From Candidatus Fermentibacterota bacterium (GTDB lineage Bacteria; Fermentibacterota; Fermentibacteria; Fermentibacterales; JCC-6), in assembly GCA_963845085.1 (NCBI GenBank), contig CAWJQI010000005.1, positions 224,001-288,000 of the forward strand: 64,000 nt of DNA. The letters run 5' to 3'. A program made the translations under genes and the position numbers. Below the pieces are notes generated by a model, which ran no database searches, was not told the DNA's origin, and saw nothing but the letters and a program-made list of their open reading frames with translations. Of this stretch, positions 1,508 to 59,609 are shown piece by piece. The first letter of the stretch is position 1. Every line of letters starts with the position of its first letter.

Positions 1508-1547
1508 TCAGGATGCAGTCAATACACCAATGAGGAAAGGGGGAAGC

Positions 1548-3020
1548 ATGAAGCTTTCCATCGCCCTGATGATCTTCGTTTCAGTCATTTCAACTCTCGC
1601 AGCCGAGCCGGTTTCAGTCTCGACCGCCCGGCAGGCGGCTGAAGGCAGGGTCGCCCGGGACGGACACACCGGCACCCACACAATATCCGCGGTCATCCCA
1701 GTCGAAAATGCCGCCTCGCAGCCTCTCGCCTACCTGTTCGAACTCAGCCCGACCGGATATGTCGTGACCTCTGCCGATGGCGACCTGCCTCCCGTGATAG
1801 CCTACTCATATGAGAACGGCTGCGCCGTTGATGAATCCGGGAGCAACCCCCTCCTTGAAATGGTCATCACCGACATGGGGCTTCGCCTGTCGGTGATTGA
1901 CCAGGCACCCGAGGGGCTGATCCGCCTTCACCGGGCAATGTGGGATGAGTACCTGTCCGGCAGGTTGGGTGTCTCCTCTCCTGCGCTGTTTGAGCAATGG
2001 CCACCCGAGGGCAGCACCCCGACAGGCGGATGGCTCATGGAGAACTGGCACCAGGGCGCGCCCTTCAACCAGTACTGCCCGATGGACCTGATCGCGGGCG
2101 CCAGAAGCGTGGCGGGCTGCCCGGCCGTCGCCATGGGCATGATCGTGAACCTCGGCGAGACCACGAACGGCACAAGGTTCGACGATGACGATGACTATTA
2201 CCACAACTACCACGAGTACTACTGGATCGACGACGACTTCGTTGCCCATGATTTCCCGTCCTGGACCGAACTGAACGGCTACATGGACATCATCGACTCC
2301 CACTACGCTGCTCAGACACCGCTCGCAGACTCGGACAAGGCAGCTCTCGTCTACGCGTGCGGTGCTGCATGCAGGCAGGTCTACACGGCATCTGTCTCCG
2401 GCACCTTCGGTGTGGATCAGGCCTACGAAGCATACCTCAGGTTCGACTTCGACGAGTGTCTCCTGATGTACGCATCCTCCGACAGCCTCTATGAAAAACT
2501 CTCACAGAACATGATGGATGCGATGCCGGCTCACCTCGCCATTGTGGATGCAGGGCCGACCTACGGCCACAACGTCGTTCTCGACGGTTACAATACCGAC
2601 GAATTCTACCACATCAACTTCGGCTGGAACGGCCCCTACAACGGCTGGTACCAGTTCCCCCTCACTGAAATGCCGTATGAAATGAACATCATCGAGGGGA
2701 TCATTCTGGACATCGGCGACGGTCAGCTTTCTGCAGATGAGGGTGCTGCCGGGGGTCTTCCCATGATCTCACTTGCGCCGGGATCGAATCCCGCTGCAAC
2801 GCCGGTTCAGCTGAGAATGACTCTGAGCCAGGAATCACAGGTCACGATCAGGGTCTACGACATCTCAGGGCACCTCGTCGACACCGTTGCGGGGGCTGCC
2901 TTCAGCGCGGGAACCCATGATCTGGCATGGAACGCGTCGAACGCATCGAGCGGGGTCTACTTCCTCGTTGCCTCCGGACCCTGGGGCGCAAGCACCCTCC
3001 GCTTCACACTGTTGCCGTAG
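1548..3020 (+). CDS. peptidase C10 (streptopain/SpeB-like) with propeptide and T9SS type A-like CTD
   Basis: Signal peptide; propeptide GYVVTSADGDLPPVIAYS; WHQGAPFNQYCP, AGCPAVAMG (catalytic Cys), GHNVVLDGY, YHINFGW; C-terminal VYDISGHLV...SGVYF. Confidence 0.85.
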   Translation: MKLSIALMIFVSVISTLAAEPVSVSTARQAAEGRVARDGHTGTHTISAVIPVENAASQPLAYLFELSPTGYVVTSADGDLPPVIAYSYENGCAVDESGSNPLLEMVITDMGLRLSVIDQAPEGLIRLHRAMWDEYLSGRLGVSSPALFEQWPPEGSTPTGGWLMENWHQGAPFNQYCPMDLIAGARSVAGCPAVAMGMIVNLGETTNGTRFDDDDDYYHNYHEYYWIDDDFVAHDFPSWTELNGYMDIIDSHYAAQTPLADSDKAALVYACGAACRQVYTASVSGTFGVDQAYEAYLRFDFDECLLMYASSDSLYEKLSQNMMDAMPAHLAIVDAGPTYGHNVVLDGYNTDEFYHINFGWNGPYNGWYQFPLTEMPYEMNIIEGIILDIGDGQLSADEGAAGGLPMISLAPGSNPAATPVQLRMTLSQESQVTIRVYDISGHLVDTVAGAAFSAGTHDLAWNASNASSGVYFLVASGPWGASTLRFTLLP

Positions 3021-11827: not shown

Positions 11828-12033
11828 ATTGTTCCCGGCTTCCCTGCCGCGAAAGGCATCGCACTCCGAAATCCCGCTCTCCGCAGCCGTCGGTTCGAAC
11901 CAACCATCGGAAGACGGGGCTGCAGTAAAGCGGGCGCTTTGCTTGCTCTCGAAGTTCCTGTTATTTTAGGTTGTACAACCCGGAACAGCGATTTCACAGC
12001 CCGGGGCAAAATGGAAGGGGAAAAGGGGCCATC

Positions 12034-13152
12034 ATGAGAAGAAATCTGGTCTTGATAACAGCCTTGCTTGTGTTCCTTGCATTCGGGGGATGCGGCAAAC
12101 CGGCGGTTGAGATCACCGCTCCCGAATCAGCCAATGCCGGTTCGGAAATCTCCATCTCCTGGACCGGAACCGTGGCGGAAGGCGACAAGATAGTCGTCCG
12201 CGCCATCGGTGCAACCGAGGGTACCGAGGTCGAGGCGGTCGCCAATTCCGCAAGCGTAACCCTCCCGCTTGAAGACGGCGCCTTCGAGATCGTCTACATG
12301 AACGCAGAGGGTGAAGCCGTCGCCACGAAGGCTCTCACCATCAATGCGAACACCTACACCTTCGAATTCCCCGAGGAAGTCATTGCGGGTTCCTGGTTCG
12401 AAGTCGCATGGACCGGCCCCGACAACGCCAGCGATTACATCACCATTGTTCCCGAGGGCGCCGCCGAAGGCGAGTGGCTTAGCTATTCCTACACCGCAGA
12501 CGGCAGCCCCGTTCAGATTCAGGCTCCTCTTGAGCCGGGTGTGTACGAGGTCCGTTATTCGACCGAGCAGGTCTACCCCAACCCCACCCTTTTCAGCAAG
12601 ACAATCACAGTCATTTCAACCGATTACGCAGTGATGGCCCCCGCCGAGATCACTGCCGGATCTGACTTCCAGGTCGCCTGGCTCGGAGCCGACAACCCCG
12701 GCGATTACATCACGATCGTCCCGGTGGGCACCCCCGAGGGCGAATGGCTCGACTACGACTACACGGTTAACGGCAACCCCTGCACCATCACCGCTCCGGC
12801 CGAACCGGGCGAGTACGAGGTCAGGTATTCATCCGAGCAGGTCACACCGAATCCCACGCTTGCCACCACCCATGTGACCGTTATCCCGGCTGAGATAACG
12901 CTCACCGCTCCCGAATCGGTGCCTGCAGGCTCGGCATTCGAGGTCACATGGACCGGACCCAACGGCGCTGAAGACTACCTCACGATAGTGCCGGCCGGCT
13001 CTCCCGAAGGAACCTATACAAGCTACGCCTACACCTCCTCGGGCAGCCCCCTCTCGCTCGACGCCCCCGCGACACCGGGCGAATACGAGATCTGGTACGC
13101 CTCCGACAGGGTTGCGGGTACATTTGCCAGCATCCCCATTACGGTGGAGTAG
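12034..13152 (+). CDS. lipoprotein with tandem Ig-like repeats
   Basis: Lipobox FGGC; three ~90-aa repeats (F.V.WTGP.N..DYITIVP.G..EG.....Y......AP..PG.YEVRY) plus a degenerate first unit. Confidence 0.8.
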   Translation: MRRNLVLITALLVFLAFGGCGKPAVEITAPESANAGSEISISWTGTVAEGDKIVVRAIGATEGTEVEAVANSASVTLPLEDGAFEIVYMNAEGEAVATKALTINANTYTFEFPEEVIAGSWFEVAWTGPDNASDYITIVPEGAAEGEWLSYSYTADGSPVQIQAPLEPGVYEVRYSTEQVYPNPTLFSKTITVISTDYAVMAPAEITAGSDFQVAWLGADNPGDYITIVPVGTPEGEWLDYDYTVNGNPCTITAPAEPGEYEVRYSSEQVTPNPTLATTHVTVIPAEITLTAPESVPAGSAFEVTWTGPNGAEDYLTIVPAGSPEGTYTSYAYTSSGSPLSLDAPATPGEYEIWYASDRVAGTFASIPITVE

Positions 13153-13164
13153 AGCTTTCGCATC

Positions 13165-13200
13165 AAACCCCCGGCGGGCAACCGCCGGGGGTTTTTGTTT
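13165..13200 (+). terminator. rho-independent terminator (possibly bidirectional)
   Basis: AAACCCCCGGCGG-GCAA-CCGCCGGGGGTTT followed by a T-run, between convergent genes. Confidence 0.85.
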
Positions 13201-13218: not shown

Positions 13219-14335
13219 TCAGATCTCCCCACCCCCGCCCTGTGGGCTCACGCCGTCTGTCTCACCGTAGTAGATCACATTTTCCTCTTCGGGATTGAAC
13301 GGGGCGACCGCAATCGACCCGTGGCCCAGCGCAACGAGCCATCCATCCATCTCCTGTTCATTCCCGACAACTATCTCCAGTTCACGGGACGGTTCGTTCG
13401 CCGGTCCGTAGATGTCGAAACACATGCGCCGAACCGGGCCCCTGCGTACCCAAAGGTCTCCGTTGCTGCTGCAGTAAAGGGACTGGACGATGTTGTGAAG
13501 GGGGTCAGCCTCGAACTCGAACCCGGCCTCACTTCCGGTCCCGCGGATCCAGGCGTTCCTCAGCCTTAGTGTTTCGGATTCCATCTCTTCCTGCGTTTTC
13601 CCGACCGGTGTGGCATCCCCTGAAATTGTCGCCAGATGCTGGTTCTGGAGTGTTACCTGGTTGACCTCGTAAGACTCGGGGCTTATCTCGGAGATGAACA
13701 GGGCTTCCCCGTCGGGAAGGACCGAGAATGCTATCGCTGTCTCCTTGATGTAGACAATGGGATGAAAGCTGTCTCGCCAGTCTTGTGTGAAAGATCGTTT
13801 GCCTTGCCGGGTTTGATGGATCCGATACATCCCAGCTGCAGAGCCTTGTTCCACACCCCTCATCCTCGTCGAAGATGTAGTCGAGCCCTATGAGGCAGCT
13901 GTCAGAAATGGCGATCAGGCGGACAGGCGTGCCGGGACGCAGCGCGCACCCGTTGAAAAGCACCTCGCTGCTGCATTCATACCCGGCGTTATAGAAGAGC
14001 ATTTTCCTGTCGGCGGGGCAATTCAGAATGAAGCCCCCGCCGGGCCTTCCTGCCAGTTCTGTTGGCGCCGTGCATTCAAGGGGACCCTCGCCGATTGACG
14101 ATATCTGCATGAAATGCACACCATCCCTGTAAATGTGAACAGCCCCGGATATCTGATCAAGCACTGCCAGATCACCGTTCTCAAGGTAGCACAGGCTTGC
14201 GATGCCAGCCAGGCCATCTCTCTCGACATCGATTCTTGAGAAGAGCTCCACCGTGGAAAGCTGTTCTTCCGGGACGCGCGCTTTACCGCAACTGCAGGCG
14301 AAAAGCAGCGCAATGAAAAGAATTGGTTTGAGCAT
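13219..14335 (-). CDS. 6-bladed beta-propeller lipoprotein, frameshifted near 13770-13800
   Basis: Lipobox-like FACSCG; IGEGPLE..P motif. The protein continues from ORF 13529..14335 into the frame of 13219..13863 after removal of one base. Confidence 0.65.
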
Positions 14336-14361
14336 TGTTTCATCACCGTATCTTCAATTGA

Positions 14362-14396
14362 CCGGCGGACATCATCGAGACGACGATGTCCACCGG
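14362..14396 (-). promoter_or_regulatory. 16-bp RNA stem-loop downstream of the small peptide gene
   Basis: Minus-strand RNA CCGGUGGACAUCGUCG-UCU-CGAUGAUGUCCGCCGG pairs fully, with two G-U wobbles that only work on this strand; no U-tail. Confidence 0.75.
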
Positions 14397-14414
14397 CGCA
14401 GCGCCTGGTTTCGA

Positions 14415-14543
14415 TCAGAAGGGCCACATATCAAGGGTCTGGCAAACGCACTGCATGTAGAAGTGTTTGCACTGCTCATCGCACTGCTCGTTATCGAGCA
14501 TTCCTCCGAGGTCCGGCATGGCCGGGGGATTGACAAGAAGCAT
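14415..14543 (-). CDS. putative RiPP precursor peptide, 42 aa, Cys-rich
   Basis: AAAGGAGG RBS, then ATG 14543: MLLVNPPAMPDLGGMLDNEQCDEQCKHFYMQCVCQTLDMWPF*. Lies directly after a radical SAM/SPASM gene. Confidence 0.75.
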   Translation of the reverse strand: MLLVNPPAMPDLGGMLDNEQCDEQCKHFYMQCVCQTLDMWPF

Positions 14544-15800
14544 TTTTCGCCTCCTTTCCATGTTTCAAGGGTTGCCTGCGAGCCCGATAGTTTTCGAAGA
14601 TGAAGCTCTCGAACCCTTCTTTTGTGAATCTGCATTTGGGGACTCCGCGCTTGAGCAGGGCATCGGGACAACCTCCGCCACATGCGGGCAGCATTCTGCA
14701 GTCTCTGCAGCCTGCCTCGCTGAAGGGGTTCCAACTTTCCCAGACCCTGTAGGATGAAATAAGGCCGCGAAGTGAAAGCTCATGGGTATCGGATGTGTCC
14801 TGCACCTGGTTCCAGCACCTTGCAAGCCTTCCTTCCGGCAGAATCACACAACTCATGAGCGTTGTTGCCGCACAGCCGGGAAACCTCGCATTGAGCCTGT
14901 CGGTGTACAACTCGGCCGTGCAGACCTCCTTTTCCATTTTCATGAGGTTGCTGATCCCTTCGGAAAAGCTTTTCCGATGTTCATAGGTTGTGGGGGCGCG
15001 GTACACGTGTATGTTCTCATCGGTCGCGATCCCACGCCTGAATTCTTCATAGTCGAACTCGTATCCCCCATCGATGTTAACCCTTACCAGAACCTTCATG
15101 TGACGGGCTGCCGTTTTGATGTTTTGGACGACCCTTTCGAAGGTTCCCCTGCCGTCTTTTGTGGTTCGCCTTGTGTCGTGCACATGCGCCGGCCCGTCAA
15201 GCGTGATCTGTGCTGCCGTCACGCCTGCTTCGTGAAGCGAGACCGAAAGCGGCTCGTCGAGCAGATAGCCGTTCGTGACAAGCATCGCATTCGCTTTCCG
15301 GTCAGCATTTCTCACCGCCGCCAGCACCGCAAGGCAAACCCCGGGGTAAAGCAGAGGCTCTCCGCCGTAAAGTGTGGTGTGAATGCCCGCGGGCCTTGCA
15401 GCATCAATCAATTCAACAATGCCGTTGATGACTTCGTCGCTGAGGACTGCGTCGTTCTTCTCGCCCTCGCTCTGTATGCAGTAGGAACAGCTGAAATTGC
15501 ATCTGCGTGTGATGACCGCTGGTCATCCGCATCTCTCCTGCGAACCTCGCCGACTTCATGAGTGTTTCGAGGTAGTACCTCTCATCGAAACCGTCGGGGA
15601 TCACAAATCCCGCTGATTCAAGGGCGTCAAGGGTTGCGCCGTCGCATAGCGGAGGCGTCGAATTCACCCCCGGGTTCGAGAAGCAGCGCTTCCAGGTACC
15701 CGTGATCGCCGTCGAGTTCGAACATGCCCCCGGTGAACCCGTTGAAGATCACGTGAACGCCGTTTCGGCGAACAGACCAGTTGTACCGCGAGTTTTTCAC
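14491..15800 (-). CDS. radical SAM/SPASM domain peptide maturase, split by frameshifts
   Basis: Reconstructed: MKNSRYN..FNGFTGG (GTG 15800), LESAGFVI, CNFSCSYC, YGGEPLL, TNGYLL, QITLDG, SPASM CRDCRMLPACGGGCP. Frameshifts near 15645 and 15520; the natural stop may be TGA 14565-14567. Confidence 0.8.
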
Positions 15801-15949: not shown

Positions 15950-18900
15950 TCAAGAGGGTTCGTTCCCCGAATCCAGTGTCACCCTGACCATCCTGGCAAG
16001 CTCGGTACCGGAGAAGGGCTTCTGGATGAAGTTGACACCCTCGTTCAGAACTCCCTCGTTTGCTATGGCGTCTGCGGTATAGCCCGACATGAAAAGGCAG
16101 CGGATGCCCGGAAACAATTCCGATAGGCGCCCCGCAAGAACGGCGCCGTTCATGCCCGGCATGACCACGTCGGTGATGAGCATGTGAACCTGTCCGTCGT
16201 ATCTTCCGGCCAGTGCAATGGCCTGCTCGGGGCTGTCTGCTGTAAGGACGCTGTATCCCAGCCGCTCGAGCATTATCCGTGTCACGTCGAGTATCGCACC
16301 CTCATCTTCAACGACAAGGACGGTTTCATGGCCGTGAACGGTGGTCAGGGTGCGGGACCTTGCAGGGGGGGGAGGCGTCGTTCCATGACGGGGAAGACAG
16401 ACCCTGAACGTGCTGCCCTTGCCGGGTTCGCTGCGCACTTCAATGTAGCCCTTGTTCTGCTTCACGATCCCGTAGACCGTTGCAAGCCCGAGCCCGGTTC
16501 CCTTGCCCTGCTCCTTGGTCGTGAAGAACGGTTCGAAAAGATGCGAAAGCATGGCTGTGTCCATGCCGCACCCGTTGTCTCCCACCGAGAGCAGCGCGTA
16601 CTCGCCCGGGATCGAGCCCGGATGCGCCGAGCAGAAAACTTCGTCGAATGTCACGGCTCCCGTCTCTATCGTTATCCTGCCGGATTCTCCAACGGCATCC
16701 CGGGCGTTCACGCAAAGGTTCGTAAGGATCTGGTCAATCTGGGACGGGTCCATCCGTACGGGACCAAGGCCGGAGGCCGGGTTCCAGACCAGTTCGATGT
16801 TCTCGCCTATGAGACGGCGAAGCATCCGAAGCATGCCGTCCACCGTCTGGTTCAGATCAAGCACTTTGGGAGCGATGGTCTGTTTCCGGGCGAACGCCAG
16901 GAGCTGCCGGGTGAGATCGGCCGACCGTTCGGCCGCCTTTTTTATCTCCTCCAGATCGGATGCGAGGGGATGGTCGCGCTCCACGCGTTCAAGGGCGAAC
17001 TCGGCATGGCCGAGTATCGCTCCGAGCATGTTGTTGAAATCATGCGCAACGCCTCCAGCAAGTCTCCCGACTGAATCCATCTTCTGTGCCTGATAAAGCT
17101 GCTCCTGAAGAATCCCGCGTTCCTCCTCGGCCAACACCCTGTCCGTTATGTCGGTGGTGAGGATCACAACCCTTTCAACAACCCCTTCGTTGTTCGTGAT
17201 CCCGTTGAAGTGCTGGCTGATGATCCGGCGCTGTCCGGTGATGGGGTGCCTTGAATTGGTCTGCATCTCCGAGATGAAGAAATCCCCGCCCCTGGTGAAC
17301 ACCCGTCTCACATCCTCGTGAAAACGGTGGAAGTAGCTGTCCCGTTCATCGAAAGCCAGCATCTCCCGCGGGCGCATGTCATGTCTGATCCGTTCCTCCG
17401 TCATTCCCCAGAGGTTCTCCCAGGCCTTGTTGTAAAGCAGAAGCTGCCCGGTCGGCGACCGGACGGATATGCCGGTACGGGAGTTGTCGATGACCGTGCG
17501 GGCGAGGCTCTCGCTCTGTTGCAGAGCGTCTTCTGCCCTGCCACGCATTATGGCATGGATGATCATCGAACCGAGCAGGTTGAGTGAATCCATTTCAACC
17601 TCGGTCCAGACCCGCTCTGCCCTGATCGCATCGAACCCGAGGAACCCGACAAGGCTTCCTTCCAGCACCATGGGGATCACCATGAGGGATTTGACGCCCT
17701 GCCTCTGAAGGATCTCCTTCTCACAGGCAGCCTGCTCCGGAAGTTCGGAGACCGACGGGACATTGATGATCCTCCCCTCGACGAACCGCTCAATCCACCA
17801 TGGCAGTGGGCATTCCGGCATGTCCCTCGAACCCGGATCAAGGGGCTGGATTGATTCGGCGCACCATTCATGCGTCTTTTCCATCCTTGCGGAGTTGTTC
17901 CGGAACAGAAACACGTAGGCGCGGTCGGCGCCGACAAACGACCCGATGGAGTTGAGCGCCCTCTGAATGACCGCATCGGTGAGGGCGGGCGTCTCCCTTA
18001 TGAACTCGGAGGATGCAACAGAGATGAGCTTTTGCAGCTCGACATGCCGCGAGATTGTTTCCTGTGCCTTTCTGCGCTCAGTAATGTCATGCAGAACCAC
18101 CAGTGTTCCGATGTGCTTCCCTCCCGGTGTGACCAATGTCGTCCTGGAAGCGCTGAAAACGTTGTTTCCGAGAACAATGTCTCCCTTGTCGGAGCCGTCC
18201 GTGAAGAATTCGGAAGCCGGAACCGTGTGCACGGACATGACGCCTTCTGCGGAAACGCTGAATGCGCTCGAGGCGAGAAGCGTTTTGGCCCCCGGGTTGC
18301 TGCTGAGAAGCCTTGACCGCCTGTCGAGCACGAAAACGGCGTCGGGCAGGTTCTCGAACAACACATCCATCGCGAACGGCGTTATGTCGAAAAGCTTCAC
18401 GGTCATTATGCCGATGTAGAAGACCAGCCCGGTTCCCATGAAGGCGACCGGGGTAAGGTCGAGAAACCCGAAGGGCTTGTAGCCGAGGATGAATGCCAGG
18501 TGGGAGATGTAAGGAAGAAGGGCGCCCGCTATGATGAAGGCAACGCGTGCCCTGCTGGGCGACGTATTCCAGAGAAACATCCGGATCAGCAGCGCCAGCC
18601 CCATGGCGACCATCAGGTTGGAGTAGACGATGTGCTGCCACCAGAAAAAGCCGGGACGGTACGTCAGAAAGCTCTGCGTTCCCGACATTCCGAGCGATAC
18701 GGACGAGTAGAAGAGATGGTGCATGTCGTTGGTGGCCAGCATGATAACGGAGATGGCAGGAACGGTGAAGAACAGCGCGACGGCAAGTGGAGAGCGCCTT
18801 CGCACCGATCCTGAATACCTTGCTGCGAACATGAGCCAGAGGACGGGGGAAGCCGCGACCCCAAGGTAGGCCGGAACGAGAAGGGCTTTTTTGTCGGCAA

Positions 18901-19075
18901 GGTCGGGGGAAGAGAGCGAAAGGCCGTAGAAGAGCGACCACAGCGTGACAGCCGCAAGCAGGCGGGCCAGCGCAGAGGCCGCCGGGTTCTGTCTTCTTTT
19001 CCACGCATGGAAGCACAACAGCAGTGAGGCTATCGTGGATCCCAGCAGCAGCATGCCGGCCGGTTGCAGAGTCAT
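15950..19075 (-). CDS. hybrid sensor histidine kinase (HisKA_7TM-PAS-GAF-PAS-HK-REC)
   Basis: 7TM N-terminus (ATNDMHHLFY); GRLAGGVAHDFNN; NLCVNARDA; FEPFFTTKEQGKGTGLGLA; receiver VEDE..TDVVMP..MSGY..KPF. Confidence 0.93.
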   Translation of the reverse strand: MTLQPAGMLLLGSTIASLLLCFHAWKRRQNPAASALARLLAAVTLWSLFYGLSLSSPDLADKKALLVPAYLGVAASPVLWLMFAARYSGSVRRRSPLAVALFFTVPAISVIMLATNDMHHLFYSSVSLGMSGTQSFLTYRPGFFWWQHIVYSNLMVAMGLALLIRMFLWNTSPSRARVAFIIAGALLPYISHLAFILGYKPFGFLDLTPVAFMGTGLVFYIGIMTVKLFDITPFAMDVLFENLPDAVFVLDRRSRLLSSNPGAKTLLASSAFSVSAEGVMSVHTVPASEFFTDGSDKGDIVLGNNVFSASRTTLVTPGGKHIGTLVVLHDITERRKAQETISRHVELQKLISVASSEFIRETPALTDAVIQRALNSIGSFVGADRAYVFLFRNNSARMEKTHEWCAESIQPLDPGSRDMPECPLPWWIERFVEGRIINVPSVSELPEQAACEKEILQRQGVKSLMVIPMVLEGSLVGFLGFDAIRAERVWTEVEMDSLNLLGSMIIHAIMRGRAEDALQQSESLARTVIDNSRTGISVRSPTGQLLLYNKAWENLWGMTEERIRHDMRPREMLAFDERDSYFHRFHEDVRRVFTRGGDFFISEMQTNSRHPITGQRRIISQHFNGITNNEGVVERVVILTTDITDRVLAEEERGILQEQLYQAQKMDSVGRLAGGVAHDFNNMLGAILGHAEFALERVERDHPLASDLEEIKKAAERSADLTRQLLAFARKQTIAPKVLDLNQTVDGMLRMLRRLIGENIELVWNPASGLGPVRMDPSQIDQILTNLCVNARDAVGESGRITIETGAVTFDEVFCSAHPGSIPGEYALLSVGDNGCGMDTAMLSHLFEPFFTTKEQGKGTGLGLATVYGIVKQNKGYIEVRSEPGKGSTFRVCLPRHGTTPPPPARSRTLTTVHGHETVLVVEDEGAILDVTRIMLERLGYSVLTADSPEQAIALAGRYDGQVHMLITDVVMPGMNGAVLAGRLSELFPGIRCLFMSGYTADAIANEGVLNEGVNFIQKPFSGTELARMVRVTLDSGNEPS

Positions 19076-19295
19076 CAGGGATTGCCCTCCAGAAATTCCT
19101 GTGCCAGGACAGTAGCATACACTCTGCACCCGCGGCGTACAATCGGAGCTCCCGCCGGTGCAACAAGAGCATGGAGTGATGCAGGCATCCTGATCAGGGC
19201 TTTCAACAAGGTCTGAAGGACAGACCGTGGCCGTGCCGACAGCCGTATTGTCCTGGATCGCTTATTGACGGCCGGCTTGCGGGCGGCAGCCGGTT

Positions 19296-20604: not shown

Positions 20605-21188
20605 GCCCTCCTCCAAACTGTCGGTTATCACAACCCTGATCCAGTTCACCCCTGTCATCCCGAACTGCATCATTCTTCATATCCCGGCATTCGCCCGGAT
20701 TGTTCCGGACAGCATAAAAGCAGAACCCCCGCAGGCACGCCAATCAAATCTCGCGGCTGGAACGCTTGTTCCATCGTCGGTGCGCACCCGTCCCGCAGAT
20801 ACAACGGCTTTAGCTACAAAGATATGATGGGACTGTCAAGTCGCAATAACGACAATAGATTTCATGAAACGACTTCACTCCACGGGCATTCCGGGCTTGG
20901 CAAATCAGCTGCGGGTCAATCGCGTCCGTGCCTTTCCAGTGGCTGAACCGGCGCGCCCGGGCTGCTCAACGGCAGCCCTTGAAAAACTGCGCTCCGGAGC
21001 CGTACTTACCTTTACCGACATCTGATGCGAAAGATTCACTTCCAACGCGAAGAACAGGTCTGTAAATGCATCATCATGAACCCGGGCAGAGGGTGCCGGA
21101 GCGCAGGCAGGATACCCCGTGACCGTCCGCGGCCGGGTCGCCGCATGGTGCGGTGCCCGAACCCGGACACAATAGGGAGGGATGTATC

Positions 21189-22317
21189 ATGTTGATTGGA
21201 AAAATGGAGTTCAGCGCCGGCTCGCTGAAGAAGCCGCTGATGATCAGCCCCGAGGGGAAGTTCATAACGGTCCAGCAGGTCGCGGAATCCCCCGCACTGG
21301 GCAGGGGATCCCTCTTCTCCCTCAGCGAGGACCTTCAAATGAAGCTCGCCATCGAGCGCTACTCCCACGAATCCGATTTTTCACTGGGAGTGATAGGGGT
21401 GGGCCTCTACACACGCGACGAGATCATCGAAAACATCCGCAAGCGTACCGAGTTCGGCATACTCGCAACAAAGGTCGAGATGGGTTACTGCAGCGAGCTG
21501 GCAGGCTCAATCACCCGCCGGACCATCCCCTCCTGGCCCAAGGTCCCCATCAAGCCGATCCAAGGAAATGGAATGGTGGAAACCGATCCAGAGGTGCATA
21601 CGCCTAAGGCTCAGAAACAGGGCGCTCTTCTGCGAAAACACCACTGACAGCGTTGCCGGCCCCATCGCAACATGGCGCATTGCAAACGTCCACCCCAGCT
21701 TCACTTCCCAGGGCTTCGTCGTTCTTGTCCTGTCCGGCAGCGACGACACCCGAAGCAACTTTGTCGACAAGGCGAAAAGCTCCCTCACCACCTACATCGG
21801 GGGTGTGGGGCACGGCAATTACGACCGTTACACCGGCCACTGGTCCGACATCATCCTCAAGGTGGGCTCCTACGATTCCGCAGAGGTGAGCGGGAAGTCC
21901 CTCCATTTCCTCAGCTGCAGGACCGCGAAGAACCTTGGCCCCGACACTGTGACCAAGGGCGCAAGGTCCTACTGCGGATACGACGAGAACTTCACGTTCG
22001 TGTGGGACGACTCGGCCACCCCGGTCAACGAGTTTGTCCTCTTCATGCAGGCAGACGGCACGTTCGACCAGTTCATGGCCAGTGGCTCGAAGGCCTCCGA
22101 GGCCTACAATGCGGCGATCCAGGCCTTCAATGCGGCCATTGCACAGGTTCCCAACACCGCCGCAGCCTCATGGCTGACGTACGACCGTGACCATCTTAGA
22201 TTGCACGGAGACGGCGACGCCACGATCAAACCCCACCGCTGGCTGAAGATTTGTTTCCCGATCCGCCACTTCATTCACGAAGACCGCCTTGTCGAAGCGG
22301 GTGAACTCGAGGACTGA
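21189..22317 (+). CDS. clan CD (caspase/gingipain-like) cysteine protease with N-terminal helical domain; apparent +1 frameshift near 21560
   Basis: GGAGG RBS before ATG 21189; GGVGHG (His) and LHFLSC (Cys) followed by LG...GA.SYCGY. Removing one C at ~21560 joins ORFs 21153..21647 and 21568..22317. Confidence 0.65.
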
Positions 22318-22834: not shown

Positions 22835-25276
22835 TCAGTTGCCCAGAACCACCAGCCGTGTGACTGCCGACTGCCCGGCACTGTGGGCAACAACGGGGTA
22901 AACACCGGCAGGAAGCCTGTTCCCCGAGGAATCGGTGAGGCTGAACGGGATCGAAACGTCGCCCGCCGGTGCATTCCCGTTGAAGACCGTATTGATCATT
23001 CGGCCGGAAATGTCGTAGACCTGAAGGATCAGCTGACCTGCAGCGGGCAGTGAACACCTGAAGCTTGTGGATGCCAGTGCAGGGTTCACCCCCGAAATGC
23101 ACAGCCCGAGCACCGATGAAGGCTCGCCGGATTCCACCGAAACGGCCCCGAGCGCCCAAATCTCCACATCGTCGATGTTCCACCCGCAGTACTCCCAGTC
23201 CGGGTCACTGGCGCCCATCACCCACCTGAGATACACCTGCGGCTGGTCGTCGGCGAACGGCGAAATGTCGAAAACCATTTGGTTCCAGTCATTGTCGGCG
23301 GTTTCCCCGGGACCGTTCTCCCAGACCGTGTCCCAGTTCTGGAGGTCGGTTGAGACGAGGATGCAGGCGTTGTCGCTCTGGTTGCCCTCTACGCCGAGCC
23401 ACCTCTGGAAGCGCAGTTGAGTTCCGTAAAGGCCTGAGCAGTCCATCGCACCGGTTGTCAGGTTCTCCTCCCCCATGCCGGGAGAATAGTCACCGAGAAG
23501 GTTGTAACCGTATACGCACTGCCCCGTAAAACCGGCGGCGGGGTCGTGATTGCCGTGCGCGCCTCCGAACCCCTGTGGAATGCCCCATTCCCAGCCGCCA
23601 TCGTTCTCCCACTCAGGGTCGTCCTCCATGTTCCAGCCGTAGACCACACCGGTCTGGCCGACGACCAAAACGATCCTTCCCGTTGCGCCCCCGATCCCGC
23701 CCGAGGCGTTCACGAAGGAAACATCAGCGGTGTAGACACCCGTCGGAAGCGATGACGCCTCATTTGAAAGGGCTGCAGTGATCTGCACGGTCTGCCCCGG
23801 CGAGATGGTTCCCGAGAGCGGCCCGAGCAGGGTGAGCCATTCAACGGGATCGGCGCTCACCTGGTACTGGGCCGAGCCGGCACCAGTGTATTCAAGGGTC
23901 CACGCCCACGAGGAGGGGGCGAACGGGCCACCGACCTCCCCCTGGAAGAGAGCATCGCCCGCCGGTGAGACCCTGAGCCCTGCGTTAAAACCAAGCAGCT
24001 TGAGGCAGAAGTTGCCTGTCTCGGGGTACGGGTTGTCGGGGCAGCCATAGAAATCATGCCATGAGCCGTCGTAGTAGTAGCTCTCGCCCTCGGAGGCGGT
24101 GGATTCAACGATCACACGGGCGGATGAGCCCAGAAGAACCGGCACATCGGCGGTCCTGTCGTAAGGGAACCCCCCCTGTGAAAACTCCATGGCAAAGTAG
24201 ACACTGTCCCCCGGACCGACCTGGAAGGGTTCGTCAAGCTGGATCGTGTGAAAACCCCTGACCTGGCAGAACTCCTCCTGCAGCCCCAGAGGGACGGAAG
24301 GGGAACCTCCGGCGAAGCTGCCGTAGAGTGCTGCGCTGCAAGTGACCGAGTCATCCGATGTAAAAAAGGAACACGCAGTGATGTAGTGGTCGCCCGAGAC
24401 TTCGAATGCGTTCATCACCCGGTCGGCCCCGGTGAAAGTGTCCCGCCAGCCGTGATAGTCGTGGTAGTAGACCTGCTCGTACTCCATGAACTCGGCGTTG
24501 TTGAAGGACACCGCGCCCATGAAGGGTTCCCGTCCGCACCACTTGTCCCAATAGCTGATGTAGAAGTAACCCTCGAACCCCCAGCTCTCGCCCCAGCTGT
24601 TCTTGCAGATCCAGGCGCCGGGTTCGGGTGCCTGGGTAACCTTGTTGTCGTCCCAGCCGATGATCGCGACGGAGTGGTTGGGGAGCTCGTCGGTGAAGGG
24701 CGGCTGGTAGTGTATGTAATCCTGCATGTAGGATGAGCTTGCGTAGTAGCATGTGGCAATGGCGCCGTTCTCCATCAGGGCGGCCTTGATCCCGTTGAGC
24801 GAACCCAGGTCGTCGCCGGCGACAAACCACTCCACGTCATCGGGGTAGTAGTAATGGTAATCCGGAGAGTTGAGCGGCGGCGCCGTGCTGAAGGACTGCG
24901 CGTCGATGTCGCGGACCGTCCCGCTTCCCCTTGAAAGGTAGGCAGTTGTCACGAGGTAGTCGCCACCCTGATGGACAGTGAGCCCCCCGCTTCCATAAGG
25001 AGGGTACATGTCTGCGTTGTGCCAGTTGTTGAAACCGTTCCACCAGTCGAGGTGGTACTCGGCAAGGTTGGGTTCACCAGCCTCACCCTGGTTCTCCCAC
25101 TCCCCCGTGAGAAGCATGTTTGATTCGATGGATGCCATTGTTCCGTGTGTCCAGCAGGTTCCGCCCTGCTGGTTCTTTACGGAGGTTACATAGCTTTGCC
25201 CGCCCACGTCCCGAAGATCGAAGGTGGAAGGGTACTGAAGCTCAAGCACTGCAAGCAAACACACAGTGACGAACAT
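22835..25276 (-). CDS. papain-family (C1) peptidase with lectin-like, BACON-like and T9SS CTD-like domains
   Basis: FDLR...VTSVKNQQGGTCW (Cys), NHSVAIIGWDD (His), WICKNSWG (Asn); C-terminal VYDISGRM..LPAGVY. Confidence 0.88.
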   Translation of the reverse strand: MFVTVCLLAVLELQYPSTFDLRDVGGQSYVTSVKNQQGGTCWTHGTMASIESNMLLTGEWENQGEAGEPNLAEYHLDWWNGFNNWHNADMYPPYGSGGLTVHQGGDYLVTTAYLSRGSGTVRDIDAQSFSTAPPLNSPDYHYYYPDDVEWFVAGDDLGSLNGIKAALMENGAIATCYYASSSYMQDYIHYQPPFTDELPNHSVAIIGWDDNKVTQAPEPGAWICKNSWGESWGFEGYFYISYWDKWCGREPFMGAVSFNNAEFMEYEQVYYHDYHGWRDTFTGADRVMNAFEVSGDHYITACSFFTSDDSVTCSAALYGSFAGGSPSVPLGLQEEFCQVRGFHTIQLDEPFQVGPGDSVYFAMEFSQGGFPYDRTADVPVLLGSSARVIVESTASEGESYYYDGSWHDFYGCPDNPYPETGNFCLKLLGFNAGLRVSPAGDALFQGEVGGPFAPSSWAWTLEYTGAGSAQYQVSADPVEWLTLLGPLSGTISPGQTVQITAALSNEASSLPTGVYTADVSFVNASGGIGGATGRIVLVVGQTGVVYGWNMEDDPEWENDGGWEWGIPQGFGGAHGNHDPAAGFTGQCVYGYNLLGDYSPGMGEENLTTGAMDCSGLYGTQLRFQRWLGVEGNQSDNACILVSTDLQNWDTVWENGPGETADNDWNQMVFDISPFADDQPQVYLRWVMGASDPDWEYCGWNIDDVEIWALGAVSVESGEPSSVLGLCISGVNPALASTSFRCSLPAAGQLILQVYDISGRMINTVFNGNAPAGDVSIPFSLTDSSGNRLPAGVYPVVAHSAGQSAVTRLVVLGN

Positions 25277-25461
25277 TGCTGCCTCCGTTTATTATGAACC
25301 GGGAAAACCTTTCCCCAACAATACAGAAAACAAAGCGCCATGACCCCCCGTGCCGGGGTGATCGGATCCTGCACTGAAATGCTTCACTGAAATAGATATA
25401 CCCTGCCGGGCACGATGTTCCGGGATGGTAACAGGGCGTTGAGTTCAGTCAGATGAATGAC

Positions 25462-25486
25462 GGTTCGAATCCTCTTCGGCGTACCA
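25462..25486 (+). other. tRNA 3'-end-like remnant (possible att-site scar)
   Basis: GGTTCGAATCC-TCT-TCGGCGT-A-CCA matches T-loop, T-stem 3' strand, acceptor 3' strand and NCCA; the upstream sequence does not fold into a cloverleaf. Confidence 0.45.
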
Positions 25487-25489
25487 CCA

Positions 25490-26911
25490 TCACCGGCCAA
25501 GCAGGGTCAACCGATGAACAAAGCCTGACTGCCCGACAACAGAGTAGATGCCCACGGGCAGTCTGACTCCCGAGAAGTCCATACCATGCCAGATGCCTGT
25601 TCCGTCAGAGACCTGAATACTCGACACCTCTCTCCCGGTGATGTCGTATACGCGAAGGGTCTGCGTCTCTGAACCGGTGTGAACGGTTACAGAGCCCGCC
25701 ACAGGGTTGCATGAAAAACTGAATCCATCGCCGGGAACGGCAGCGAACTGCTGCTCTGCTGTGCTGACGTAATCGTAGTCGAACCAGCCGAAGGTGGGGT
25801 AATTACCCAAGACCGGCTCGGTCTCAGCCTGTTCATAAGCGATGTAGAGATTGCCTTCTGCATCGGCTTCTCCACTAATGAAAGGCAGACCTTCAGGGTC
25901 CTCGTCCGCATAGTCGTATGCAATCGCCCAGTCAACTATTACATCTCCGTTGCCGTTCATCAGGAGAAAAAGTATCTGATTGTCCTGGCCATTGTCTGTC
26001 CACACAAGGTAGAACAAATCAGTTCCGGGTATGTTGCTAAGGACGAATTCGAGGCTGACATACATTTCCGGTGGTTCAGATGTGACAATGACCTTCTGGT
26101 TTATCAGGGTGAATCCGCTATACTTATCCAGCTTCCACAACACATAACCGTAGGTATCAACTGAAGTCTCATGAACTACCATGAGGTTACCGTTCTCGTC
26201 AACGGCAAGTTCAGGGAACCGATTGCAAATAATGTAGTCTGGAGTAAAGTCAGTGATTGGTACAACCGTATTCCCATTTAAATCGTATTGAAGGTAGGAA
26301 TAATTGTGATCCACCGGATCCTGCACCACGACATGAACCCGGTTCCCGTCAACGAGGAGAACTCCACCCGCGTCCGCGCCGTCTATCTTCCAGTCCCGTT
26401 CCACGGTGAAGCCCGATCCGGGCGCCGGTGTCCACACGGCATACCTGACATCATCTCCGTCATTGTAGAGCACATGCAGTCTGCCAAGACTGTCCGGGCA
26501 TGCCCTGATGTAGGGATAAAGAGTGGAGGTCGTGAACAGGTAGGTGGCTGGGGTATCAATATTTCCGTTTGTCAAGTTGCAGATGCAGTAGTATGCCTGT
26601 GAGTAAGCCCTCCAGAATACAAACAGGCTGTCGCCCATCGCTGCTGTTGAGACAAGAGAGCTGTGTGAGTCCAAAGAAATCATTGTGTCAGGGTAGATGG
26701 TGGTTCCGTCAAGCAGAAATGCCTTATAACCAATCCTGCTTTGGTCTTTGTAGCCTGACCAGACAAGATGGAATCTGCCCAGATCATCAGAATGCAGGTG
26801 CAGCTCAGGCCTTGCAGTATTCGCCTCCTCAGTCACCAGAACCGGCATGCTCCAGCCCGGACTCGGGGTAACCCCGGAGAGCCAGAGACAGAGAAGCCCG
26901 AGAACCGTCAT
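25490..26911 (-). CDS. secreted BNR/beta-propeller-like protein with T9SS CTD-like domain
   Basis: Signal peptide; repeated D.LGR.H.(V/L) blades; C-terminal CNPV..LRVYDITGREV..LPVGIY; ATGA overlap with the upstream gene. Confidence 0.75.
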   Translation of the reverse strand: MTVLGLLCLWLSGVTPSPGWSMPVLVTEEANTARPELHLHSDDLGRFHLVWSGYKDQSRIGYKAFLLDGTTIYPDTMISLDSHSSLVSTAAMGDSLFVFWRAYSQAYYCICNLTNGNIDTPATYLFTTSTLYPYIRACPDSLGRLHVLYNDGDDVRYAVWTPAPGSGFTVERDWKIDGADAGGVLLVDGNRVHVVVQDPVDHNYSYLQYDLNGNTVVPITDFTPDYIICNRFPELAVDENGNLMVVHETSVDTYGYVLWKLDKYSGFTLINQKVIVTSEPPEMYVSLEFVLSNIPGTDLFYLVWTDNGQDNQILFLLMNGNGDVIVDWAIAYDYADEDPEGLPFISGEADAEGNLYIAYEQAETEPVLGNYPTFGWFDYDYVSTAEQQFAAVPGDGFSFSCNPVAGSVTVHTGSETQTLRVYDITGREVSSIQVSDGTGIWHGMDFSGVRLPVGIYSVVGQSGFVHRLTLLGR

Positions 26912-29900
26912 TGCAGTACACCCGTTCTTCCCTCATCATGCTGGAACTGAGGCCAGGGGGCATAGCCGGATGTGCATGCACCAAGTTCCCAGCAGTGAAG
27001 GTATCCGTCGCTGGTGCCGAAGACCATCTCGACAACACCATCCCTGTCGATGTCTGCTATGCTGAAACCACCAAAGGAAGTGACATTGTCCGGAAGGGTT
27101 ATTGGGAAGTCGGAGTTGACGGGAGGGTTCGAACTGCTTTCATACGCAAGTAGGATACACTTTCCATCCAGGAGTGTTGAAAAAAGCACATCGGCATAAC
27201 CAGCATTGTCAATGTTCCCAAGCGCCGCAGGACTTATGGGAGAGCTAATACTGGCACCAGAAAACTCTCCTGTCGGCCAGTTACCGAAAGGTTCACCGTA
27301 CTTATCCCATGCCAAAGTTTCCATCTCTGAAGGAAGAACGAAGGTATCAGCTCCCTGTATGCCTGGATTCCAGTCCGCGAAAACACCGTACCTGAGGTTG
27401 TCGGCGTCACAAGTCCCGACTTCGCACTCTTCCTCAATGAGACCATCGGGTTCAACGATCAATGCCGGATTCTCGGATCTGTACCTGTATTTTCTGTACG
27501 GATACCCGACGAGATACTCACCGCCCAGTCTTCCCGCTGCCGGCGTAACAGGCAGTCCGGGTTCCGATCTTGATTGTACAAAAGGAGTTCCTCCTGTTTC
27601 CCAGTCGTACACAACAAGGGCATTATAGCCTGTAGCAGGTGGAGGCGCGGCAATGGAATAACCACAGCAATAGACCGCGTCAGCGTAGGAATTGTTGTCA
27701 AGATCCGCACAGGCCAGAGAGTACTCTATCGGTTCGTTTGGAAGGCTCAACTGCTTCGTTGAATTGGCGCTGAAGCTTTGAACAAGCGAATTCCATGTGT
27801 AGAGATAAAGTGTATTGCCCACTGCCGCGCAGAGTTCAAGTCCCTGTGTGCTTTCCATCTCTCCAACGCAGAATACGCCGGTCGCCAACTGAATGGTCTG
27901 GAGGACATCTCCATCAGCACTTACCACTTTGATGCCGTCATCCGAGGCCAGGATGAACTCGGTTTCACCGTCATTGCCAAGGTCTGAGGCAAGAATCTGA
28001 ATTGAGCTGGAAAAGCCTTCGCGGGCGACACTCCAGATCTCTCCGCCGTCCTCTTCGAAAGCGGTGAGCGTGTTGCCCACAAGAACAATCACCTCCAGAT
28101 CAGGGTCATTGTCGATGTTCGCCAGAACAGGTGTTGTGGAAACAACCTCATCCACGAGCTGAATCCAGCCGCCAAACACGGGATAGGTATCGTTGAAGCC
28201 GACGGTTACCGATGCATCGTTGTTGTGCCACCAACAGTCATCACATACTTCTTCATAGTCAACTGTAATTGAGACGGTCAGATCAATTGGCGGCTGGAAC
28301 CACGCGGAGCAATCCCATGTGTACTGGAAATCCTGATAACCGCCAGCGTCTATTGGATCGCACTCGATGTAATCTGTGAAGGTGTTTGCTCCGTTTCTGA
28401 ACGTTATCCGGATGTCGCACTCATCCGAATCCTGGGCGCCATTGTTTCTTACCCTGAATTGAAGTGGAAGATCCAAACCTGTTGATGTCTCTTCAGGGTA
28501 CTGTGACACAACAATCTCACCGCCATAGATAGAGAGGTCACACTTATCGGGGTACCGTACCCTGTCGCTGATATCGAGAGCAGGGTCTCCGAGAAGATTG
28601 AATTGACCGAGTGCAGGAAGCCCTGAGCCAGATTGGCTTATAAAGTAGTCAATGTGCTGGTTCCGAGCGGAAGCAATCGCGTCTCCCAGCCGTCCGTGCC
28701 CTCTTGCATAGATGGCTTCAAGAATCCCCTTCCCGTAGTATTCATAACAATCCATGTCGGATGGCCGGGATCCGCAGAATACACCTGCAACCGGAACAGC
28801 CGTGTTTTTAAGAATCCTCTCAGCCAGGCAGTCCGAACTGAAATTGAAGGGCATTGTATCAGATTCATCATCGAAACAGAAATAGGTGTGACTTTCACGA
28901 TTCTCGTGTTCGTAGAGTGTATGGTTGAATGTTCCCGCAGAGCAGCACAGGAGAAGAGAAAATGGGGCCGAGTAACCCTGAGCAGTGCCAGTGAGGTGCT
29001 GCTCAATCTGGTAGTTGTTGAAAGTACTGTCTCTGCAGCCCTTTGTATCATCACCGAACTCATAGAGCCACTCGCACCATTCAAGCCCGGCGCTGAACAT
29101 GTGAAGCTCGCCGTGGTTGCTGAAAAAAGCTACTCCGGCTCCCCTCCCGAATTCAGTGATGCAGTTTTGAACCCACTCGCTGCTTTTCATGGGACTCTGA
29201 TCGGACTCCTCGTCGGTAAACCATCTCCCGTCTCCACAGTAATGTGAGACATAGCCGTACGATGTCCAGTCGGCAAAGCCCGAAGCCCAGAGATCGAGAG
29301 GTTCATTGTCTATCCCGAAGTTCTGGTGAAAAACACCCTCGATTGGATCTCCGGTTCCGGCAAGCCTGAGGATTCGTCTCCTGTAGTCTGTTATCGGCTG
29401 ACTGGTAATGGGCTGTTCCAGATCGATCATGTTCTGGATCAGTGTGCTGAGTGTATCCGGGGCATGCTCACCGCCGTTTTTCACGGAAAGTCTTCCCACG
29501 AACATGCTCGGCACGGCGTTGTCAACGGACTGGAGTTCAGCGAAATAAACGTACCATTCATCGTTGCCGATCATGCCCGCACCAAAAGGCGCCAGGTATT
29601 CGTGAGTCGGCAGATACCATGGCTCATCAGAGTAATCAGATTCCTCGTGGTCACCGATCAGAAGAAGATAGCCGGGCTTTTTCCCCGAAGTCTGGGTCCA
29701 GTTGTTCCACATGTGTTCCGTGAACTCCCTGATCGTGTAATCGGTGAGCAGCAATTGACCCTGCCCGAAATCATCGAAGATGTCATCCGTTGTCACCAGG
29801 GCAACATCGAAGTCGTTAAGTTCAACCCTGTGTTCTGCCAGATCGTCAATGGCATCCTGACACTGGGCGTACAGACCGGAAGCACAGATTATCACATAGT

Positions 29901-35683: not shown

Positions 35684-35835
35684 TTCGTCCCCCCCCAATC
35701 TGTGTTGCCTCAGCTGTGCACGGAGCCTAAAGTTGAACTGGTCATGAGATACAACATGCACGGGAATATGACAATGGAGCCGGAATGACCATGCATGGCA
35801 CAAGGCTCACCACGATTAGTAAAGGCGGTCACCAA

Positions 35836-45423: not shown

Positions 45424-45426
45424 GAT

Positions 45427-59460: not shown

Positions 59461-59609
59461 GCGCTCCCAAAGCTCCAACACCCGTGACCGATGCCGGTAT
59501 CCCCCCCGGAAAAGACAATACCGGCACCGGCATGCGGAGGTCAATGCTCTCCGGGGCTTCGCCCCCGCTGTGCCCCGGGTTATGTTCACCCCATCGAAGG
59601 GAGTGCGGT

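What the first reader, a model, noticed from the sequence alone, without database searches (positions are those of the whole stretch)
13219..15800. Hidden RiPP-like cluster: radical SAM/SPASM maturase, 42-aa Cys-rich precursor and beta-propeller lipoprotein
Seen: right after the rSAM/SPASM gene is an unannotated ORF (14543-14415) with an AAAGGAGG RBS. It encodes MLLVNPPAMPDLGG|MLDNEQCDEQCKHFYMQCVCQTLDMWPF, with a Cys-free leader ending in LGG and a core of four Cys (CxxxC...CxC), repeated (E/M)QC units and several aromatics. A 16-bp strand-specific hairpin and a propeller lipoprotein follow. Known: SPASM enzymes with an N-terminal RRE-like region install thioether (sacti-/ranthipeptide) or C-C crosslinks on such peptides. 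Inference: a peptide family I do not recognise, from a poorly studied lineage. No C39 peptidase-exporter is present in the window, so processing would have to be in trans.
Basis: partly seen in the sequence, partly recalled or inferred. Interest (0 to 1): 0.82.

Follow-up and report, generated by a model that had tools for sequence, protein, structure and literature searches.

The report
Cysteine-stapled peptides paired with propeller lipoproteins
An uncultured anaerobic bacterium carries a real, conserved three-gene unit (a radical-SAM enzyme, a 42-residue four-cysteine peptide and a propeller-shaped lipoprotein) that likely makes a sulfur-stapled peptide and belongs to an apparently undescribed family of highly variable peptides spread across its phylum.

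Summary
Observation confirmed; interpretation mostly right. The 42-aa ORF is a real gene: intact in two other species of the genus, 69-81% identical (more than the enzyme or lipoprotein), with mostly synonymous changes. The RRE-radical-SAM/SPASM enzyme has seven conserved SPASM cysteines and shares 3 of 6 active-site signature residues with CrpC, a thioether-forming enzyme, against 0 of 6 with CteB. It passes no curated family cut-off. It belongs to a Ca. Fermentibacterota clade (15 loci, 12 of 70 genomes). All 13 loci with downstream DNA carry small Cys-rich ORFs (22 precursors found in all), and 11 of 14 peptide loci have a 6-bladed propeller. Propeller clades follow peptide type even behind the 'wrong' enzyme. 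The double-glycine reading fails: GG is lost in one ortholog group and no C39 peptidase was found in six genomes. The window's three frame breaks are single extra bases absent from close relatives' contigs, so either assembly error or strain decay. This scan had already noted the sister cluster elsewhere in this genome (e1-1167392/3). Chemistry and function are untested. Verdict: new variant of Cys-thioether RiPP systems.

The parts
14491..15800 (-). RRE-radical SAM/SPASM maturase, 437 aa when read through with X; single extra bases at about 15650 and 15520 split it into three frames
   Evidence: 53-54% identical over full length to intact G003 and G005 orthologs; close relatives' contigs lack one base at both places
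15540..15800 (-). N-terminal RRE (three strands, three helices; leader-binding role inferred)
   Evidence: AlphaFold model of the G003 ortholog, residues 1-85, pLDDT 80-93; best fold match CteB 5WGG, TM 0.65
15478..15501 (-). CxxxCxxC SAM-cluster motif
   Evidence: PF04055 76 bits
14632..14874 (-). SPASM region with seven cysteines invariant in nine clade members (3 for AuxI, 4 for AuxII by analogy with CrpC/CteB)
   Evidence: an eighth Cys near the first ligand is not conserved in position; CrpC ligand pattern in PMC13692751
14550..14557 (-). Shine-Dalgarno site AAAGGAGG of the precursor, inside the rSAM 3' end
   Evidence: AAGGAGG kept in both orthologs
14415..14543 (-). 42-aa precursor: N-terminal leader with hydrophobic residues 3-4 and Pro6-Pro7; core with Cys21, 25, 32, 34 and C-terminal WPF
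   Evidence: (15 synonymous vs 8 non-synonymous codon changes against G003; dN 0.11, dS saturated)
14361..14397 (-). 17-bp RNA hairpin without U-tail between precursor and lipoprotein; likely mRNA stabiliser or partial terminator (inferred)
13219..14335 (-). 6-bladed beta-propeller lipoprotein (DUF5128/NHL-like), 371 aa read through with X; one extra base at about 13773
13165..13194 (.). Intrinsic terminator hairpin between the cluster and the convergent gene 11971-13152

Best explanation
The region is a three-gene ribosomal-peptide unit in which the radical-SAM/SPASM enzyme likely grips the precursor's N-terminal leader with its RRE and likely staples core cysteines to nearby residues as thioethers, most likely of the non-alpha (ranthionine) kind, and the propeller lipoprotein is predicted to be the peptide's cognate partner outside the cytoplasm. 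Shown: gene order, conservation, fold, seven SPASM Cys, leader motif, first core Cys at position 18-21 in 19 of 22 precursors, propeller clades matching peptide type. Inferred: leader binding (as CteA binds CteB); H-abstraction by the 5'-deoxyadenosyl radical with the substrate Cys held on the open iron of AuxI; up to four -2 Da links, candidates being Cys34-Asp38 (PapB-like CX3D, kept in 7 of 8 variants) or Cys to the +3 residue as in CrpA; a hairpin that raises precursor mRNA over lipoprotein mRNA. Leader removal and export have no dedicated gene here; a C39-less ABC exporter lies in 3 sister loci, so a generic protease and exporter, or no cleavage, is inferred. The biological role (antagonism with immunity, or signal with receptor) is not shown.
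For: Best family model TIGR04463, 176 bits, whose member CrpC makes Cys thioethers judged ranthionine (PMC13692751). Six catalytic-site-proximity residues (defined in PMC10288494): here I-Y-V-T-W-N; CrpC F-F-V-T-W-E, read by eye from its supplement; CteB F-F-T-S-H-Q. The G064 clade member is exactly F-F-V-T-W-E. Best solved relative CteB by profile (E 9e-28) and fold. Cys is the feature shared by all 22 precursors, 4-9 each. 13 of 13 clade loci with downstream DNA have such an ORF. Propeller at 11 of 14 peptide loci; type A and type B propellers form separate clades (100/100, 100/99), and two type B peptide-plus-propeller units lie behind the type A enzyme in G003.
Against: No chemistry was tested. 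The enzyme scores far below all cut-offs (176 vs 525; 133 vs 600; 130 vs 600), signature position 1 is Ile rather than aromatic, and CrpC's own linkage type rests on MS behaviour. CX3D/E is present in only 9 of 22 precursors and in 1 of 4 Cys here. The genome has 11 DUF5128 matches, plus the window's broken copy which that search missed; only one of the 11 (the type B copy) lay beside a precursor in my scan, and 3 of 14 peptide loci showed no propeller (one ends 370 nt after the peptide), so the propeller family works more widely than this system and linkage alone could explain matching clades. The window copy may be dead: three breaks in 2.4 kb against about one per 19 kb elsewhere.
Confidence: 0.55

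Rival explanations
1. Same system, but the links are S-to-C-alpha (sactipeptide), possibly hairpin-like from Cys21/25/32/34 to partners on the other strand.
For: Three-Cys AuxI is shared by sacti- and ranthisynthases (PMC8326336 passages); sactisynthases are polyphyletic and some resemble ranthisynthases (PMC10288494); the signature differs from CteB at all six positions.
Against: Signature matches CrpC at 3 of 6 positions and exactly in one clade member; only eight residues follow the last Cys. The sactisynthase signatures are in figures I could not read, so this was not compared directly.
Confidence: 0.2
2. The enzyme makes non-sulfur links (aromatic C-C or C-N through His27, Phe28, Trp40) and the cysteines form disulfides or bind metal.
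For: His27, Phe28, Trp40, Phe42 are invariant in 8 of 8 variants; TigE, SuiB and ChlB are among fold matches; the G003 and G005 enzymes have an extra Cys that could fill AuxI.
Against: Aromatics are not shared across the 22 precursors (the G066 and G026 cores have one Phe each) whereas Cys is; the extra Cys is shifted by one in the window enzyme and absent in the rest of the clade.
Confidence: 0.12
3. Orthogonal to chemistry: the cluster is a recent pseudogene in this strain, not a misassembled intact unit.
For: Three breaks in 2.4 kb versus 16 (15 distinct) in 218 genes, 290 kb (Poisson about 3e-4 by my arithmetic if breaks were independent); a type A cluster has decayed in G007, losing the enzyme body and peptide.
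Against: All three are the same event type, one extra base; contigs 95-99% alike from three studies lack them; breaks cluster elsewhere in this assembly, with 5 of 16 in 10 kb of C1 and three in one gene at 83-86% identity to its relative; no in-frame stops in any piece.
Confidence: 0.3
4. The peptide is an unmodified metal-binding or redox mini-protein and the enzyme acts on something else.
For: CxxxC and CxC motifs with an acidic N-terminal half could bind metal; CrpA is proposed to bind metals.
Against: RRE-bearing enzyme directly upstream in 13 of 13 loci; conserved leader with hypervariable cores and Cys spacings.
Confidence: 0.07

Closest known systems
CrpC/CrpA of Methanococcus voltae (TIGR04463; PMC13692751)
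   Same: RRE-rSAM-SPASM layout, seven SPASM Cys, V-T-W at signature positions 3-5, Cys-rich substrate encoded beside the enzyme; best-scoring family model.
   Different: Score 176 vs cut-off 525; substrate is a 42-aa peptide, not a 298-aa repeat protein; bacterial; propeller lipoprotein partner; Ile at signature position 1.
Clo7bot (TIGR04334) and Cys-every-fifth CefB (NF038107) peptide maturase systems
   Same: Next-best models (130 and 133 bits); small Cys-rich precursors; type B sister peptides have Cys every fifth or sixth residue.
   Different: Cut-offs of 600 not approached; no precursor model matched the peptides tested; neither name was found in the paper library.
CteB/CteA (SCIFF ranthipeptide; PDB 5WGG, 5WHY)
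   Same: Best solved relative by profile and fold; RRE plus SPASM with open AuxI site; first core Cys near residue 21.
   Different: 18% identity in the fold match; 0 of 6 signature residues identical; TIGR03974 56 bits vs 425; four Cys rather than six.
PapB/PapA (freyrasin)
   Same: One Cys-X3-Asp motif (Cys34-Asp38) in 7 of 8 variants.
   Different: PapA has six such motifs (PMC9413430 abstract); NF047865 88 bits vs 340; 13 of 22 precursors have no CX3D/E.
Double-glycine-leader RiPPs with C39 peptidase exporters
   Same: LGG lies before the core in the window and G003 peptides.
   Different: GG not conserved, no C39 domain found in six genomes, adjacent ABC exporters in sister loci lack C39 (2 tested).

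Membership tests
Radical SAM/SPASM RiPP maturase | CxxxCxxC radical SAM domain | tested here: met
   PF04055 76 bits vs 29.5
Radical SAM/SPASM RiPP maturase | C-terminal SPASM cysteines for two auxiliary clusters | tested here: met
   Seven Cys invariant in nine sequences; no Pfam SPASM model hit was reported
Radical SAM/SPASM RiPP maturase | N-terminal RRE | tested here: met
   Three strands plus three helices in model; full-length match to CteB
Radical SAM/SPASM RiPP maturase | Adjacent conserved precursor gene | tested here: met
Ranthipeptide | Enzyme-made S to non-alpha-carbon thioether | not testable with these tools
   Needs co-expression and MS or NMR
Ranthipeptide | Active-site signature like thioether-forming relatives | tested here: inconclusive
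   3 of 6 identical to CrpC, 0 of 6 to CteB
TIGR04463 (CrpC family) | HMM score above 525 | tested here: not met
   176 and 161 bits for the intact orthologs
TIGR04463 (CrpC family) | Large Cys-rich protein substrate nearby | tested here: not met
   Substrate candidates are 34-53 aa
Clo7bot TIGR04334 / CefB NF038107 | HMM score above 600 and matching precursor model | tested here: not met
   126-150 bits; no model hit for four peptides tested
SCIFF / PapB ranthisynthases | HMM cut-offs 425 / 340; six-Cys or repeated CX3D precursor | tested here: not met
   56 and 88 bits; one CX3D
Double-glycine leader peptides | Conserved GG/GA cleavage site | tested here: not met
   4 of 8 type A variants, 6 of 22 precursors
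Double-glycine leader peptides | C39 peptidase-ABC exporter in the genome | tested here: not met
   0 of 6 genomes, 88-98% complete; control rang in 7 of 14
DUF5128 (PF17170) 6-bladed propeller | Pfam score above 22.9 | tested here: inconclusive
   Type A proteins give no Pfam hit; a sister-locus propeller passes at 27.4; Atlas nearest clusters are DUF5128 at 0.96; fold is a six-bladed NHL-like propeller

The most novel reading that the evidence does not exclude
Ca. Fermentibacterota run a polymorphic peptide-recognition system: one clade of radical-SAM enzymes staples hypervariable Cys-rich peptides at a fixed distance from an RRE-bound leader, with no leader peptidase, and each peptide type is inherited with its own propeller lipoprotein as receptor or immunity protein in mobile peptide-plus-propeller cassettes. 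This would give the first ligand class for the large orphan DUF5128 propeller family.
Probability: 0.25. Interest if true: 0.82.

Novelty: new variant of a known kind. Interest (0 to 1): 0.58.

Why it matters
The enzyme lies in the TIGR04463/Clo7bot neighbourhood, for which my searches found one characterised member, acting on a large archaeal protein. Intact orthologs with short, easily expressed substrates make the chemistry of this branch directly testable, and 22 natural precursors with varied Cys spacing suggest a tolerant stapling enzyme. The pairing of peptide types with propeller clades offers a testable function for an abundant lipoprotein family that returned no paper in the library searched, and a first natural-product pathway lead for an uncultured anaerobic phylum.

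Tried and rejected
Double-glycine/C39 processing: rejected. Upstream hybrid histidine kinase (15950-19129) as part of the unit: kinase-like genes near only 2 of the other loci among 17 stretches searched, absent beside G003 and G005 type A clusters, and many paralogs in the genome, so treated as a bystander; the downstream Ig-repeat gene had no match in those stretches. Peptide profile found only 3 of 70 phylum genomes and 2 clusters among 5.8 billion proteins. No RNA holder listed; no contig laid covered the peptide ORF itself. No sigma-70-like promoter found. Hairpins after peptides are strong (z below -3) in 4 of 18 tested, so the feature is not universal. Paper searches with no describing paper: FlmE/OhkG (36), Fermentibacter + radical SAM (37, three unrelated listings), 6-bladed beta-propeller + radical SAM + precursor peptide (45), Clo7bot/TIGR04463/TIGR04334/geopeptide/Cys-every-fifth (46, one hit, CrpC), DUF5128/NVEALA/PF17170/GG-Bacteroidales (63), ranthipeptide + lipoprotein + beta-propeller (91), Fermentibacterota + BGC + RiPP (104, one listing not read). 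The supplement of PMC10288494 gave 0 hits for six terms; its figures and Fig. S25 of PMC13692751 are images I could not read and may bear on the sacti/ranthi call.

Full report
Observation. The minus strand from 15800 to 13219 holds a radical-SAM gene, a 42-codon ORF (14543-14415) with AAAGGAGG six bases upstream, a hairpin and a lipoprotein gene. The rSAM is split over three frames and the lipoprotein over two. The window is contig C5 of a 2.45-Mb, five-contig, 88% complete genome. A member of the 90% cluster of the window's pyruvate:ferredoxin oxidoreductase is named Ca. Fermentibacteraceae, which gives the lineage.

The peptide is a real gene. Two of seven other genomes of the genus carry an intact ortholog of the enzyme (433 and 409 aa) followed by a 42-aa peptide and a 361-362-aa lipoprotein. 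The peptide is 81% and 69% identical to these, against 53-54% for the enzyme and 51-52% for the lipoprotein. Against G003, 15 codons differ synonymously and 8 non-synonymously, with 19 of 27 base changes at third positions. Eight variants keep all four Cys, both EQC units, KHF and WPF; the third QC and the GG are not kept. Comparable small Cys-rich ORFs with a ribosome site occur 44 times in the genome. A profile of the peptide finds 3 of 70 phylum genomes and two clusters in the large protein collection, one listed as hypothetical protein.

The frame breaks. Contigs from four runs of three studies, mostly 95-99% alike, lack one base at 13773 (2 runs), 15520 (3 runs) and 15650 (3 runs), exactly the three breaks; most of these contigs have depth under 5. 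In a background test, 327 ORFs from 20 stretches of four relatives gave 218 ortholog-like matches over 290 kb with 16 breaks, 15 distinct, five of them within 10 kb. Three breaks in 2.4 kb is therefore well above the mean rate, but breaks cluster in this assembly. I put assembly error at about 70% and strain-specific decay at 30%. A type A cluster has decayed in G007, where only the first 95 codons of the enzyme remain directly before an intact propeller, with no peptide.

The enzyme. The model of the G003 ortholog (pLDDT 78.5) shows an N-terminal three-strand, three-helix RRE, a partial barrel and a SPASM region. CteB is the best solved relative by profile and fold (TM 0.65). Seven SPASM cysteines are invariant in nine sequences, the pattern reported for CrpC, where three ligate AuxI and leave an open iron (PMC13692751; I read abstract, passages, section 12 and supplement passages). 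NCBIfam best models are TIGR04463 (176 vs cut-off 525), CefB (133 vs 600) and Clo7bot (130 vs 600); none of 108 further relatives scanned passed a cut-off either. The six catalytic-site-proximity positions defined on CteB (PMC10288494; abstract, passages, section 7) read I-Y-V-T-W-N here. CrpC reads F-F-V-T-W-E (by eye) and CteB F-F-T-S-H-Q. One clade member matches CrpC exactly, and the x-[YF]-[VI]-T-W pattern dominates the TIGR04463/04334-like relatives. CrpC forms Cys thioethers judged to be ranthionines. This makes a thioether the likeliest chemistry and the non-alpha type the likelier of the two; it does not show it.

The family. A profile from nine enzymes finds 15 loci with E below 1e-100 in 12 of 70 phylum genomes, plus weaker hits; the profile was built from nine of them, so the scores lean that way. 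In a tree of 72 enzymes (17 phylum rows, 7 top relatives, every third of 142 further relatives) these 15 fall in one group with seven unlabelled proteins (support 91; 98 with one more row), and the window's type A enzymes form a 99-supported subgroup. Two loci end at a contig edge; all 13 others have a small Cys-rich ORF right after the enzyme, and a cut locus in G002 has one upstream. In all I found 22 precursors of 34-53 aa with 4-9 Cys. The scan required hydrophobic residues at positions 3-4, which the first 18, picked without that filter, all had. Pro7 is present in 17 of 22, the first core Cys lies at position 18-21 in 19 of 22, GG/GA lies in the leader of 6 of 22, and CX3D/E in 9 of 22. 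The leader looks like an RRE-binding strand, as CteA's leader binds CteB (PMC8326336 passages); the cores are hypervariable. No C39 peptidase was found in this genome or five relatives. Three sister loci have an ABC exporter next to the unit; the two tested have no C39 domain.

The lipoprotein. It folds as a six-bladed NHL-like propeller and its nearest Atlas clusters are DUF5128 (0.96; one commonest in Ca. Fermentibacterota), though type A proteins do not hit the Pfam model. Propellers occur at 11 of 14 peptide loci. In a tree of 24 propellers, the four type A proteins (100/100) and four type B proteins (100/99) form separate clades. Type B propellers sit beside type B peptides (Cys spaced x4-x5-x5) in G003:C13 and in this genome's second cluster, and also twice behind the type A unit in G003:C27. 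So peptide and propeller travel together apart from the enzyme. Against a tight functional link: the genome has 11 DUF5128 matches, of which only the type B copy lay beside a precursor in my scan, and physical linkage alone can give matching trees. Binding could not be modelled.

The hairpin. A 17-pair stem follows the peptide (z -3.4); G005 and G003 have stems of unrelated sequence at the same place (z -5.0, -2.0). Strong stems also follow the last peptide in G007 and the peptide in G070, but only 4 of 18 tested reach z below -3. With no U-tail it likely stabilises the precursor message or damps read-through (inference).

Mechanism committed to. Leader bound by the RRE; core Cys held at the open AuxI iron; radical H-abstraction from a nearby residue; thioether formation, up to four links; candidates are Cys34-Asp38, as in PapB's Cys-X3-Asp motifs (PMC9413430, abstract only), or short Cys-to-+3 links like CrpA's motifs. 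Export and trimming are by unlinked generic systems or do not occur; the propeller likely binds the product. Confidence 0.85 that this is an enzyme-substrate pair, 0.75 for thioether, 0.55 for the non-alpha type, about 0.3 for cognate binding by the propeller.

Novelty. No curated family or paper found describes it (searches listed under Tried and rejected; subscription journals are mostly outside the library). It works like CrpC and the ranthipeptide systems but is a member of none of the named families. This scan's earlier notes describe the type B cluster of the same genome and several other rSAM-peptide-propeller units in other genomes, so the pairing recurs; I verified the former myself before seeing the notes and did not test the latter. 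Class: new variant of a known kind; interest 0.58.

Noticed in passing
G000:C5:858782-861524 (L027): Second, intact cluster in the same genome: clade enzyme (33% identical), two type B peptides (47 and 45 aa) and a type B propeller.
   Followed up: yes
L030 10356-11798 (-) (G007:C2): Decayed type A unit: first 95 codons of the enzyme directly before an intact type A propeller, with no enzyme body or peptide; a transposase-like fragment (judged by eye) follows. It faces a separate intact cluster with three tandem peptides, a propeller and an ABC exporter.
   Followed up: partly
L021 7985-10818 (G003:C27): Three type B peptides and two type B propellers appended behind the type A unit; the type B enzyme is on another contig.
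   Followed up: yes
L024 11253-11366 (-) (G027): Second copy of the local precursor about 5 kb upstream of the enzyme, among large genes that look duplicated around the cluster; no propeller nearby.
   Followed up: no
L031 5853-6014 (-) (G022): 53-aa precursor whose core is a near-perfect threefold repeat with nine Cys.
   Followed up: no
L032 (G008:C3) and L060 (G044:C165): rSAM/SPASM enzymes outside this clade with three-gene ABC-type transporters; G008 also has an upstream 37-aa Cys peptide and a propeller.
   Followed up: no
window 21153-22317 (+) and 44422-45828 (+): ORFs of 164, 249 and 468 aa without a convincing Pfam match.
   Followed up: no
window 1530-3020, 22835-30618, 33989-35803: Several secreted-type proteins (peptidases C10, C1, C25) with FlgD-Ig or Por-secretion-tail-like C-terminal domains.
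   Followed up: no
window 56239-59631 (-) and 61272-62537 (+): Adenylate/guanylate cyclase-AAA-TPR protein, and a protein with an NAD-glycohydrolase-translocation F5/8-type domain.
   Followed up: no
G000:C1:56200-65700: Five frame breaks in about 10 kb of genes 83-88% identical to a relative's, showing locally poor assembly quality.
   Followed up: partly
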